From NCBI GenBank assembly GCA_964388035.1, contig CAYLZE010000004.1, positions 50,486-114,485 on the forward strand: a DNA stretch of 64,000 nt, in the 5' to 3' direction. Shown in pieces: positions 5,025 through 63,876 of this stretch (position 1 is its first letter; each line of letters starts with the position of its first letter). Position numbers and translations under genes: made by a program. The stretch comes from an uncultured archaeon (GTDB lineage: Archaea > Asgardarchaeota > Lokiarchaeia > Sigyniarchaeales > SOKP01). The notes below the pieces were generated by a model, which made no database searches, had not been told where the DNA came from, and was given only the letters and a program-made list of their open reading frames with translations.

Positions 5025-6312
5025 ATGCAAGAAAAAATAATTGATGATAATATTCACGAGAGAATGTCCTTAGAAAACGTGTTCAAGATATTCAATGATA
5101 ATATCTTTCCAATGCTTAATGAAGAAGAGCGCGGGTATTGCAATGAACTTCAACAATTTTGCTTGGAACTGCAGCCACGGATTGATAAATCAAAAGACGT
5201 GTATGAATTATTTCCGGATTTAGGAAAAAATGGTTATATGCAGAGAATCAATTTATGGCAAGATTTCACTCCTTATGGCATGAAGAAAGAAATCCTCCTA
5301 GGAACGCACTTGTCTCTTTTAGATCCTCAGTTGGAATTAGCACGCTTGGCGAGTGGTATTCTTTGTGGCAATCCTACATTCCATTATTATCGACACGGTG
5401 GTACCGGAGATACGATTCAGAAAGTTCAAGATGAGTTAATGTCTGGTGCAAAAATAGGGTGCATAGGAATAACTGAACCGAAAAGAGGGTCTGACGCTGT
5501 AAATATGACAACTACATGTATAAAGTCAGATGATGGAATAATTTATAACGGAGAGAAGGTCTATACAACTAATGGGCCTAAAGCGGATTATTTCTGTACT
5601 TATGCCGTATACGATACTGAACATCCTCGAGAAACCATGGTTCAAGCCATGATTAAGCGAGAATTCGGAGTGAGAACAGAAAGACTTAAAATAAATTCCG
5701 TTCCCCGAGTGCATATTGCTCATACAATTATAAAAGATGTTAGGATTCCTCAAGAATATATTCTAGCTGATAATGGTGATGGCTATGTTCGTTTATTTGA
5801 AGGGTTGGTTCCTGAACGGTTAGGTATAAGTGCTTAGTGGTCTCCACTCACTACCAAATATGGGTTCAGGAATTGGAATTGCATGGGCAGGATTGATTTA
5901 TGGTATTATTTATACGAATTTAAGGAGACAATTTGGCCAAGAAGTAATAAAATATGAAGGCGTGGGATTTGGACTGGCAGAATTGCTCTCAAAATGTACC
6001 GCAGCAACTTCCCTAGCACTGCAAGCCGCTACGATTTACGATGAGAAAGTATTATTCTCAGAGCGTCCTAATAAAGAAGCAGAAAAATGGGTTGCGGCAG
6101 TATCATCCCAAGGTAAGTATTATGTTTCAAAACTTACTCACGATGTATGCTATGAAGTTCAGCAGCACATGGGTGGAGTATCCGTCACGGATAATACTCC
6201 CGTAGATGAACTCATGGATACGAGCAAGATCGAAGAAGTAATTGGCGGAGCTCGTAACATCCAATTGTTTATAATACAAAACCTCTTGCGTAGGTATAAG
6301 AATATTTTATAA
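5025..6312 (+). CDS. Acyl-CoA dehydrogenase interrupted by a 31-nt insertion; reconstructed join(5025..5827,5859..6312), 418 aa
   Basis: ORF 5025-5837 has ITEPKRGSD and NGEKVYTTNG; ORF 5830-6312 has RRQFG, QHMGG and EVIGGA. Removing 31 nt gives ERLGIMGSGIGIA, in register with RIGIAAQALGIA of the intact paralogue at 39517. Confidence 0.85.
5828..5858 (+). other. Putative BHB-type archaeal intron / structured 31-nt insertion
   Basis: Internal hairpin AGTG-CTT-AGTGG-TCT-CCACT-CACT; GGT(A) pairs with (T)ACC between two 3-nt bulges on opposite strands; exon-exon stem TTCCTGAAC (5809-5817)/GTTCAGGAA (5864-5872); contains the in-frame TAG. Confidence 0.6.
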
Positions 6313-61457: not shown

Positions 61458-61901
61458 TTAAGCTTTCGCTTTTTTTTTAGGTGTGCCACCTTTCGATCTT
61501 AAAGGACTGGGTCCCAATTCCCTGATTTTCTTATCGAATTCTATAACCGTGTTTTGGAATTTCTGTCCTTCTGCGGCTGAACAGAATCCCATCATGATCC
61601 GATCTTCGCTAAGTCCAATAGATTTTAAGATTTCTTTAATATATTCGACCTGTCGATACGCGAAGTAATTTCCGGTCTCATAATCACATTCATGCGGGTA
61701 TCATCCAATGATCATCACACCATCTGCCCCTCTTCCGAAGGAACGCATGATGACATCGGAACCAACTCTACCCGTGCACGGCACTAATACTGGTCTTACT
61801 GAGGTGGGATACTGGGCACGAATAGTTCCAGCCATATCGGCGGAACCATATCCTCATTTCCAGCAGAGGAATGCAATTATCTTGATATCGTCTTCTGACA
61901 T
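61458..61901 (-). CDS. mvhD: Hydrogenase iron-sulfur subunit MvhD/VhuD, selenoprotein with 2 Sec, 147 aa (absent from the ORF track)
   Basis: MSEDDIKIIAFLCWKUGYGSADMAG...VPCTGRV...GADGVMIIGUYPHECDYETGN...CSAAEG...LGPSPL; TGA at 61854-61856 and 61701-61703 occupy conserved Cys positions; GAGGTG before the ATG. Confidence 0.92.
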
Positions 61902-61914
61902 TTTATCCACCTCT

Positions 61915-63876
61915 TTACTCCTCTATGGGGAGTAATTCATCTATTAAGACCGTATATTGCTGATCCCTATAATAGGTTAATTCAATAGCATGACTCGGGC
62001 AGACTGCTGCACACGTTCCACAACCCCGGCATTTAATTAAATCCACCACCAGATTTCCATTTTCATTTACGGAAATAGCGGTATAAGGACATGATTCAAT
62101 GCACTTATAGCATTTAGCACATCGTTCATCCAAAGGCGTGGCACGTATCAATTCCATCTTATACTCTCCTTTGCCCATTGGTATGGCAGCACTGGAAGCA
62201 GCACCCTTTGCTTGACTCACTGCTTTATCGATTTCTTTCTGTCCTTGAGAAGATCCACAGATGTAAATTCCAGGCACCTTGGTGCTAATTGGATCGAGCC
62301 GGGCATGATACTCCTTCAGAAAGCCATCCGGACTTTTTTCCATGTTCAATACGCGAGCAATCTCAACCGTACCTTGAGAAGGAAGGGATGCAGAAGATAA
62401 CACCACCATATCAAATTCCTTGCTCACCACGGCATCCGTCCCAACGGGTTCAAACCAAGCTTTTAAATTCTTGGTTTTCGGGTCTTCTTCTATCTTTCCC
62501 ACCAGTCCTTTCATGAAGAGTATTCCCGCATTTCGAGAGCGCCTGTAATATTCCTCGTAATCCTTACCGGCACATCGCATGTCAATATAAACACACATGA
62601 TTTCTGAATCGGGATGTTCCGACTTGATGAGCTTGGAATTCTTGAGAGATAAGTTGCAGCAAACCACGCTGCACCACGCGTTCTTTTTCAGATCACGGGA
62701 ACCCACGCAGTTGATGAATAAAATCCGTTTTGGACGGGTTCTATCAGAGGGACGTTTTAAATGTCCATAAGTGGGGCCATTAGGAGCTAAAATCCGTTCT
62801 AACTGGATTTGATTAATGACATTATCATAAAGACCATAACCGTAATCTTCTCCTTTATAAAGATCCCAACCCGTAGCAACGATAATCGTTCCGACCTCTA
62901 ATTCCACGATCTTATCTTCTATGCTAAAATCGATGGCAGATTGTTCACATGCATCCACGCAAGCAAAGCATTCCACGCATGAAGCTCGTTCTATATTTCG
63001 TACAGCAGGAACTGCTTGGGCAAATGCTATATCGATGACCTTCCTTGCGGAAAGATTTTCATCGAAATAATTGGGTAAATATATCGGGCACACGTCCGTG
63101 CAACTTCCACAGCCTGTACACTTAGTTTCATCCAGAAAACGAGATTTCCTCTTCACTTGCACCTTGAAATTCCCAATATAACCATCTACTTTTACAACTT
63201 CACTATAACTTAATATGTCAATGTTTGGATGGCGATTTGCCTCAAGCATTCTTGGTCCTAATATTCAAATAGAACAATCATCGGTGGGAAAAGTTCTATC
63301 AAGTTGAGACATTCTACCTCCGATCGTGGTATTTTTTTCTACTAAATACACCTTGTATCCTGAATCCCCTAAATCAATTGCAGCAGATAATCCCGCGATT
63401 CCACCACCCACGACTAATGCCGCGGGCGTAACGGGTACTGTCTTGGTAGGAACATCCTCAAGAAGTCGAGATCGTGCGATTCCTGCCTTGATTAATTCTA
63501 CCGCTTTATTAATAGCTTTCTCCCGGTCTTCGGGTGCTTGATGGACGAAACTACAATGTTCTCTAATATTTACAAATTCTAAATATCGGGGAGGTAATCC
63601 CGCTTCAGCTAAAATGGCATGAAATACCGGTTGATGGGTCTTTGGTGTACAAGCCGCAACAACGATTCTTTTTAACTTAGCCTCCTTGATCTGCTCCTTG
63701 ATATATTCAGATCCTCCTTCCGTGCACATGCTCAAGTATTCAAATGCTTTTACGCCTTCCAATTGGTTCAATCGTTCTACAATTTGGGGGACATCTAAGA
63801 TTCCAGCAATATTAATGCCTCAGCGACACACAAAAACGCCTGTAGTAATTATTTCGTTGGTCTGAGCATCAGACAA
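61915..63876 (-). CDS. hdrA: Heterodisulfide reductase subunit A, selenoprotein with 2 Sec, 653 aa
   Basis: TTG 63876 after GGTGGA; GVFVCRUGINIAG (TGA 63820-63822) and TFPTDDCSIUIL (TGA 63265-63267) join the track fragments in one frame; GGGIAG, CVGSRD, CSVVCC and ferredoxin motifs. Confidence 0.93.

What the first reader, a model, noticed from the sequence alone, without database searches (positions are those of the whole stretch)
5809..5872. Candidate bulge-helix-bulge intron in the mRNA of a metabolic gene (acyl-CoA dehydrogenase)
Seen: an otherwise intact gene carries exactly 31 extra nt in the conserved ERxGIxxxxxGIA helix, adding a TAG and a +1 shift. The insert is a hairpin (AGTG/CACT, CTT bulge, AGTGG/CCACT). 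It pairs with the 5' exon (GGT 5823-5825 with ACC 5853-5855) between two 3-nt bulges on opposite strands. The exons pair with each other over 9 bp (5809-5817/5864-5872), in the same register as the inner stem, as BHB geometry requires. Known: archaeal splicing endonuclease EndA cuts after the second nucleotide of each bulge; mRNA substrates are rare, crenarchaeal cbf5 being the classic case. Caveat: two registers are possible. The perfect helix GGTA/TACC excises 29 nt (5829-5857) and stays out of frame. The shifted helix AGGT/ACCA (one A-A mismatch) excises 31 nt (5828-5858) and gives GGT-ATT-ATG-GGT, i.e. ERLGIMGSGIGIA. Inference: this lineage may splice protein-coding mRNA with its tRNA-splicing machinery, and the two registers could even act as a productive/non-productive switch.
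Basis: partly seen in the sequence, partly recalled or inferred. Interest (0 to 1): 0.9.

Follow-up and report, generated by a model that had tools for sequence, protein, structure and literature searches.

The report
Mobile tRNA-type mini-intron in Asgard mRNA
A 31-base insert that breaks a fatty-acid-metabolism gene of a Loki-type Asgard archaeon is very probably an intron cut out of the messenger RNA by the tRNA-splicing enzymes; four other lineages carry a related intron at exactly the same base, in a patchy pattern that suggests it spreads between species, but no RNA was available to show the splicing.

Summary
Observation confirmed. A clean 31-nt insert (5828-5858) breaks an otherwise intact 418-aa acyl-CoA dehydrogenase; 98 of 107 orthologues lack it. 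The fold alone is not beyond chance (z -1.3; blind scan equals mirror control), and the productive register is only a relaxed BHB (3 of 4 central pairs). Comparison supplies the evidence. Four other lineages carry a 33-nt, stop-containing intron at the same base, with a full 4-bp helix, compensatory changes and the same exon helix built from synonymous codons. In this genome 8 of 9 frame-breaking inserts found by homology sit at canonical BHBs, and the single pyrG has the same relaxed motif in 7 genomes. A two-subunit EndA with the broad-specificity loop, and RtcB, are present. The 29/31 switch is not supported. Carriers fall in five places of the gene tree beside intron-less sisters (one clade rejected, p-AU 4e-9), and their flanks resemble each other, not their sisters: likely lateral spread as a short patch. 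No RNA or read evidence. This scan has noted such Asgard mRNA introns many times on other DNA (317 notes); print that I could search documents only cbf5 and one 5' UTR.

The parts
5025..5827 (+). Exon 1 of the acyl-CoA dehydrogenase CDS (N-terminal and middle domains, into helix G)
   Evidence: (PF02770)
5828..5858 (+). 31-nt intron (predicted EndA cuts 5827/5828 and 5858/5859); carries TAG 5835-5837 and a +1 shift
5859..6312 (+). Exon 2 (C-terminal domain); spliced product 418 aa
   Evidence: (PF00441); 93% identical to the G001 orthologue
5822..5825 (+). Central helix, exon strand; pairs with 5853-5856 (3 Watson-Crick pairs, A5822.A5856 mismatch)
   Evidence: full 4 pairs in relatives
5853..5856 (+). 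Central helix, intron strand
5826..5828 (+). 5' splice-site bulge (AT^A)
   Evidence: same cut position in four other lineages
5857..5859 (+). 3' splice-site bulge (AA^T), set in a larger internal loop
5829..5852 (+). Intron hairpin: 4-bp stem, 3-nt bulge, 5-bp stem, 3-nt loop; same architecture, different sequence and 5-nt loop in the 33-nt relatives
5809..5817 (+). Exon-exon helix, 5' arm (pairs with 5864-5872; formed in about 91% of the ensemble)
5864..5872 (+). Exon-exon helix, 3' arm
5829..5857 (+). Competing 29-nt register (perfect 4-bp helix, TA^A bulge); excision would stay out of frame
   Evidence: not formed in other carriers
5814..5816 (+). Glu264 codon, 11 nt before the intron; probable helix-G catalytic glutamate (inferred)
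   Evidence: no Glu at the SCAD-type J/K-loop position; IVD/LCAD-type placement is from own knowledge

Best explanation
A functional relaxed-BHB mRNA intron. The pre-mRNA folds so that a 9-bp exon-exon helix and the intron hairpin clamp a short central helix between two 3-nt bulges (fold: computed). The two-subunit EndA cuts after the second base of each bulge (5827/5828, 5858/5859) and RtcB joins the exons, giving the 418-aa enzyme (enzymes present: shown; cutting and joining: inferred). EndA prefers the 31-nt register because its bulges begin with A, the base the enzyme stacks, whereas the 29-nt register begins with U (inferred). It is one of roughly 30-40 such introns in this genome (extrapolated) and belongs to an intron family sitting at this same base in at least five lineages.
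For: Clean insert against 98 orthologues. Same-base 33-nt introns with an in-frame stop and a full 4-bp helix in four other lineages, hosts only 72-78% identical. The last central pair is T-A here, T.G or C-G elsewhere, and the inner stem shows a double change. Carriers share 10-11 of 11 pairing-compatible synonymous choices, 80 non-carriers at most 9; unpaired third positions vary. Homology census: 7 of 12 coding inserts of 25-45 nt at canonical BHB vs 3-8% in nulls, P 5e-6 and 1e-8. Same relaxed class (mismatch next to the 3' bulge) in the single pyrG of 7 genomes from 3 genera. 5' bulge starts with A at 14 of 15 other sites, never TA; first bulge base is stacked by EndA (PMC12397907). EndA alpha keeps Tyr/His/Lys, Arg/Trp and the loop Lys/Arg of A. 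pernix (PMC3241643); second subunit and RtcB present. No decay: 18+5 derived residue changes vs 15+3 in the sister.
Against: No RNA, read or enzyme evidence. This copy is the only one I found where the needed register is relaxed while a canonical register competes; the complete 29-nt motif is predicted more often than the complete 31-nt motif (about 3-6% vs 0.1-0.3% of the ensemble), although the 31-type 5' bulge is favoured 0.50 to 0.31. The window's intron sequence is seen in one assembly only. Lack of decay cannot exclude recent inactivation. The gene is probably dispensable, so selection is a weaker argument than for pyrG.
Confidence: 0.8

Rival explanations
1. A real BHB intron by origin, but this copy has decayed: the A.A mismatch lets the perfect 29-nt register win, so the message is mis-spliced and the gene is a young pseudogene.
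For: Relatives have 4 of 4 central pairs, this copy 3 of 4; complete 29-nt motif predicted more populated.
Against: The same mismatch class persists in the single pyrG of 7 genomes; the other three central pairs are all Watson-Crick here, stronger than in relatives; exon helix perfect; no other lesion or rate excess; U-first bulge disfavoured.
Confidence: 0.12
2. Two-register switch: the cell tunes enzyme output by choosing the 31-nt (productive) or 29-nt (dead) cut.
For: Both conformers are populated (0.50 and 0.31); the cbf5 intron was proposed to be a negative regulator (PMC2738675).
Against: The shorter register is not conserved in any other carrier; competing registers are common by-products at other sites; populations barely change between 20 and 37 C.
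Confidence: 0.04
3. No splicing: protein is made by +1 frameshifting before the TAG or as two halves restarting at GTG 5830 or ATG 5860.
For: The +1 frame is open from 5830.
Against: In the other carriers the insert is 33 nt with an in-frame stop, so frameshifting cannot rescue it; the break is inside helix G next to the probable catalytic Glu; it does not explain conserved pairing.
Confidence: 0.02
4. Assembly artefact or a random hairpin insertion (template switch, transposon footprint).
For: Reads not examined; exact insert found in no other record.
Against: Related introns at the same base in many independent assemblies; no target-site duplication in the sequence; 40 kb of the window aligns to the same-genus genome.
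Confidence: 0.02

Closest known systems
BHB intron of cbf5 pre-mRNA in Desulfurococcales and Sulfolobales (Watanabe 2002; Yokobori 2009, PMC2738675)
   Same: Short intron inside a coding sequence at a critical motif; mostly unconventional BHB; cut after the second bulge base; host has a hetero-oligomeric EndA.
   Different: Ordinary metabolic gene in a Promethearchaeota (Loki-type) archaeon; one of many mRNA introns per genome, not a single gene; scattered presence with exchanged flanks instead of one gain and a few losses; splicing shown for cbf5, not here.
BHB intron in the 5' UTR of Haloferax HVO_1309 (Schwarz 2020, PMC7714728)
   Same: mRNA substrate of EndA.
   Different: Untranslated region, 46 nt, does not break a reading frame; shown by circRNA-seq and in vitro.
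Asgard tRNA introns (bioRxiv 10.64898/2026.10.13.758758)
   Same: Same size class (24-43 nt in this genome), BHB boundaries, repeated gains on terminal branches, (alpha-beta)2 EndA.
   Different: tRNA genes only (the word mRNA does not occur in that paper); it found no route of arrival, whereas this mRNA intron shows a patch-like sharing between lineages.
Homing introns with exon co-conversion (group I; archaeal rRNA BHB introns with homing endonucleases) - own knowledge
   Same: Patchy distribution, near-identical introns in diverged hosts, flanks that follow the intron.
   Different: 31-33 nt, no endonuclease gene, no ribozyme; tract only about 20 nt upstream and 30 nt downstream; no driver identified.

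Membership tests
Canonical BHB intron (hBHBh') | Four central base pairs in the register that restores the frame | tested here: not met
   3 of 4 (A5822.A5856) in this copy; met in the four other carrier lineages
Canonical BHB intron (hBHBh') | Contiguous exon helix directly beyond the 3' bulge | tested here: not met
   One pair, three mismatches, then 9 bp in register
Relaxed BHB mRNA intron (cbf5 type) | Two 3-nt bulges on opposite strands, each 3' of a central helix of at least 3 pairs, with an intron helix | tested here: met
Relaxed BHB mRNA intron (cbf5 type) | Cuts after the second bulge base coincide with homology-defined exon borders and restore the frame | tested here: met
Relaxed BHB mRNA intron (cbf5 type) | Host encodes a two-subunit EndA with the broad-specificity loop, and an RNA ligase | tested here: met
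   residues as in PMC3241643
Relaxed BHB mRNA intron (cbf5 type) | Structure maintained by selection across carriers | tested here: met
   (three pair types at one central position; synonymous choices follow pairing)
Relaxed BHB mRNA intron (cbf5 type) | Spliced mRNA or excised circle seen in cells | not testable with these tools
   No RNA holder listed; read laying unavailable; the one 418-aa cluster member checked is an intron-less allele
Relaxed BHB mRNA intron (cbf5 type) | Cleavage by EndA in vitro | not testable with these tools
   bench experiment
Homing intron | Intron-encoded or trans-acting endonuclease | tested here: not met
   31 nt cannot encode one; no trans factor was sought or found
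Homing intron | Distribution discordant with host gene tree and co-converted flanks | tested here: met
   selection on pairing can explain part of the flank signal
Transposon footprint / MITE | Target-site duplication and further copies in the genome | tested here: not met
   No duplication in the sequence; single copy even at 8 mismatches

The most novel reading that the evidence does not exclude
Tiny EndA-spliced mRNA introns are mobile between Asgard species: the intron plus about 20-30 nt of each flank, which supply the exon helix, moves as a gene-conversion patch into the same site of diverged orthologues, with no intron-encoded enzyme. That would give a concrete route of spread for BHB introns and make dozens of Asgard protein genes depend on tRNA-type splicing.
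Probability: 0.55. Interest if true: 0.9.

Novelty: new variant of a known kind. Interest (0 to 1): 0.8.

Why it matters
In the literature I could search, archaeal mRNA splicing is documented for one coding sequence (cbf5) and one 5' UTR. Here an ordinary metabolic gene, and by homology also actin, pyrG, rpl11 and several dehydrogenases, of the closest prokaryotic relatives of eukaryotes appear to need endonuclease/ligase splicing. That bears on the origin of split genes and of HAC1/XBP1-like non-spliceosomal splicing, and means many Asgard genes are misannotated as fragments. The site studied here adds a natural experiment on how such introns spread (a question the 2026 Asgard tRNA-intron preprint leaves open) and a two-register substrate that tests how EndA chooses between geometry and bulge sequence.

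Tried and rejected
Read evidence: no RNA holder listed (no evidence either way). Motif-first genome scans gave no excess over the mirror control and were dropped as evidence. Paralogue-only split-gene search was too insensitive. No tRNA intron or other locus as donor. P0136 and P0142, long members of the carriers' clusters, are intron-less alleles, not spliced messages. Many pyrG profile splits were a natural protein loop, not introns. L334's extra 1-nt deletion is absent from its 99.9% twins L348-L352. Promoter scan uninformative. The careful protein tree did not finish; quick trees were used. A swap-null P of 0 comes from too few swaps and is not used.

Full report
Setting. The window is G000:C4:50486-114485 of a 5.47-Mb, 96.7% complete, 7.3% contaminated genome. 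Orthologues of the gene come from records named Promethearchaeota or Lokiarchaeota, so the host is a Loki-type Asgard archaeon (inference from relatives). The best DNA holders are salt-marsh metagenomes.

Observation. The gene runs 5025-6312 (+). The first ORF (PF02770) stops at TAG 5835-5837; the C-terminal domain (PF00441) lies in the +1 frame. Removing 31 nt gives a 418-aa protein that aligns without a gap to the same-genus orthologue at 89.7%. Of 107 orthologues, 98 span the site with no insert. By homology the insert could be 5828-5858 or 5829-5859; the BHB rule (cut after the second bulge base) selects the first.

Chance. The sequence alone does not carry the claim. Folding z is -1.29. 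Genome-wide, BHB patterns whose excision rescues a frame are as common as their mirror images, and a BHB-like class arises at this site in 10-17% of null placements. The productive register has 3 of 4 central pairs and an interrupted exon helix, i.e. a relaxed motif, a class that the Asgard tRNA preprint warns is permissive.

Same site in other lineages. A pattern scan of species genomes, metagenome orthologues and truncated 270-aa database proteins revealed 33-nt inserts after exactly the same base in four further lineages: L267, L273, L334/L348-L352/L356-L358 and L347/L354/L355. Each has an in-frame stop, so it is lethal unless removed; each forms all four central pairs with A-first bulges. 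Their hairpin has the same build as the window's (4 bp, 3-nt bulge, 5 bp), with other letters and a longer loop; common ancestry with the 31-nt copy is likely but not proven. The last central pair is T-A in the window, T.G in L267/L273/L348 and C-G in L347/L354, where the exon codon itself changed; the inner stem shows a further double change. L267 and L273 keep the upstream GTPase and phosphomutase genes, so they are orthologues. At 11 synonymous positions that build the exon and central helices, four carriers score 11, 11, 11 and 10; 80 non-carriers score 2-9; unpaired third positions differ among carriers. This is the signature of selection on the RNA fold, or of transfer, or both.

A genome-wide system. 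I compared G000 with 2.1 Mb of the same-genus genome, covering 1.59 Mb of G000, and listed inserts without using the motif. Of 12 coding inserts of 25-45 nt, 7 sit at canonical BHBs within 3 nt, against 3-8% in nulls (P 5e-6 shuffled, 1e-8 moved; one of the seven was known to me beforehand, and two of the twelve are duplicates). Nine break the frame; eight are canonical (one at offset -4) and the ninth is this one. Antisense placement gave none among the nine. Extrapolated, that is about 30-40 per genome, not counting introns shared by both genomes. The single pyrG carries a 31-nt frameshifting insert at one site in 7 genomes of 3 genera, with diverged hairpins and the same defect as here: a mismatch at the central pair next to the 3' bulge. 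The main actin has two such inserts, each shared in position with another genome, and the same-genus genome has one in rpl11. The pyrG and actin leads came from unchecked scan notes and were verified here at DNA level.

Machinery. Two EndA homologues and RtcB are encoded. One is closest to the A. pernix catalytic subunit and keeps Y125, H133, K164, R157, W183 and the loop residues K44 and R46, the loop that confers broad specificity (PMC3241643); the other lacks the catalytic His. Many tRNAs carry 24-43-nt introns, some outside the anticodon loop.

Which register. The 29-nt register is geometrically perfect and, as a complete motif, predicted more populated (3-6% vs 0.1-0.3%); the 31-type 5' bulge alone is favoured 0.50 to 0.31. 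For 31: it is the cut position conserved in all carriers; its bulges start with A, as do 14 of 15 other 5' bulges, none of which reads TA; EndA stacks that first base between Arg and Trp (PMC12397907); several relatives tolerate a competing canonical 35-nt register that also starts with a pyrimidine. Against: this is the only case where the needed register is relaxed and the competitor canonical. The shorter register is not conserved, so a regulated switch has no support. The exons show no decay (18 and 5 derived changes vs 15 and 3 in the sister; dN 0.086 and 0.037 with saturated synonymous sites), which cannot exclude a recent loss of function.

History. With ten codons either side removed, the six carriers fall in five places, each beside intron-less sisters; one clade is rejected (p-AU 4.4e-9, quick tree). 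The 33-nt introns of L267, L273 and L334 are 31-32 of 33 identical although their host genes are 76-77% identical and synonymously near saturation, while pyrG introns at similar distances have diverged widely. Between L348 and its intron-less sister L346, identity is 88.5% in exon 1, 72% over the 50 nt around the site and 93.9% in exon 2. The windows at the site are the only ones in the gene where carriers resemble each other more than their sisters (+0.43 against -0.22, sd 0.08), and a second intron site of the same gene (CDS base 1133, four carriers) behaves alike. The simplest reading is lateral movement of intron plus short flanks by recombination. An old intron with repeated replacement by intron-less patches, or strong selection on pairing after gain, is not excluded, and no root or direction was tested.

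Comparison with print. Searches found cbf5 (PMC2738675) and the Haloferax 5' UTR intron (PMC7714728) as the only demonstrated archaeal mRNA cases, and one preprint on Asgard tRNA introns that does not treat mRNA. The library lacks most subscription papers. The scan's own notes hold 317 similar findings in at least 91 genomes, some reporting spliced RNA; these are unchecked leads, not support.

Verdict. Works like the cbf5 intron; meets the relaxed but not the canonical BHB definition; splicing itself untested. Probability that it is a BHB intron by origin about 0.95, that this copy yields the productive 31-nt splice about 0.8. New variant of a known kind; interest 0.8.

Noticed in passing
window 63265-63267, 61854-61856, 61701-61703 (- strand): In-frame TGA codons at cysteine-like positions in an hdrA-like gene and the mvhD-like gene after it; paralogues on C32, C45 and C57 break at the same place. 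Probably selenocysteine, known for Lokiarchaeota (own knowledge); SECIS not sought.
   Followed up: partly
G000 C50:19070-19098 (L034:1571-1599): Textbook 29-nt BHB insert inside the zinc-binding motif of a Zn-dependent dehydrogenase; over 20 orthologues lack it, while four relatives share a 29-30-nt insert at another site and G013 has a third.
   Followed up: yes
G000 C50:21722, C32:9821, C45:19136, C199:1790, C10:43614, C66:9417, C10:28451: Further frame-breaking 29-37-nt inserts at canonical BHB boundaries; host genes mostly not identified.
   Followed up: partly
G000 C10:71608 and C47:4844: Two paralogous 33-nt in-frame, stop-free inserts with relaxed BHB and a 9-bp exon helix; could be introns or protein loops.
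   Followed up: partly
L264 (G000 C37), L104, L245-L249; L257, L258: 31-nt pyrG intron shared by 7 genomes; a second, 30-nt stop-containing insert near the pyrG start in G006 and G034 whose BHB register was not resolved.
   Followed up: partly
G000 C5:42813-44150; L261, L235, L260: Main actin with two inserts (33 and 31 nt) near its 3' end; G008 and G013 share one site each, G022 has another.
   Followed up: yes
L162:5649-5676 (G001): 28-nt frameshifting BHB insert in ribosomal protein L11; otherwise G001 shows far fewer private mRNA inserts than G000 in the compared part.
   Followed up: partly
L269, L274, L275, L293 (CDS base 1133 of the same ACAD): Second intron site in this gene: 33 nt, in-frame stop, four scattered carriers, same flank-sharing pattern.
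   Followed up: yes
L026 and L339, ACAD CDS base 365: 21-nt insert, with a stop in L026, that did not fit a BHB within 4 nt; unexplained.
   Followed up: no
L014 and L007: Short second copy of the ACAD C-terminal 35-40 residues downstream of the gene.
   Followed up: no
G000 C26:5970-6044 and C19:22275-22377: tRNA genes with apparent D-arm introns that ARAGORN mis-called; only 22 tRNA genes were reported for the genome.
   Followed up: no
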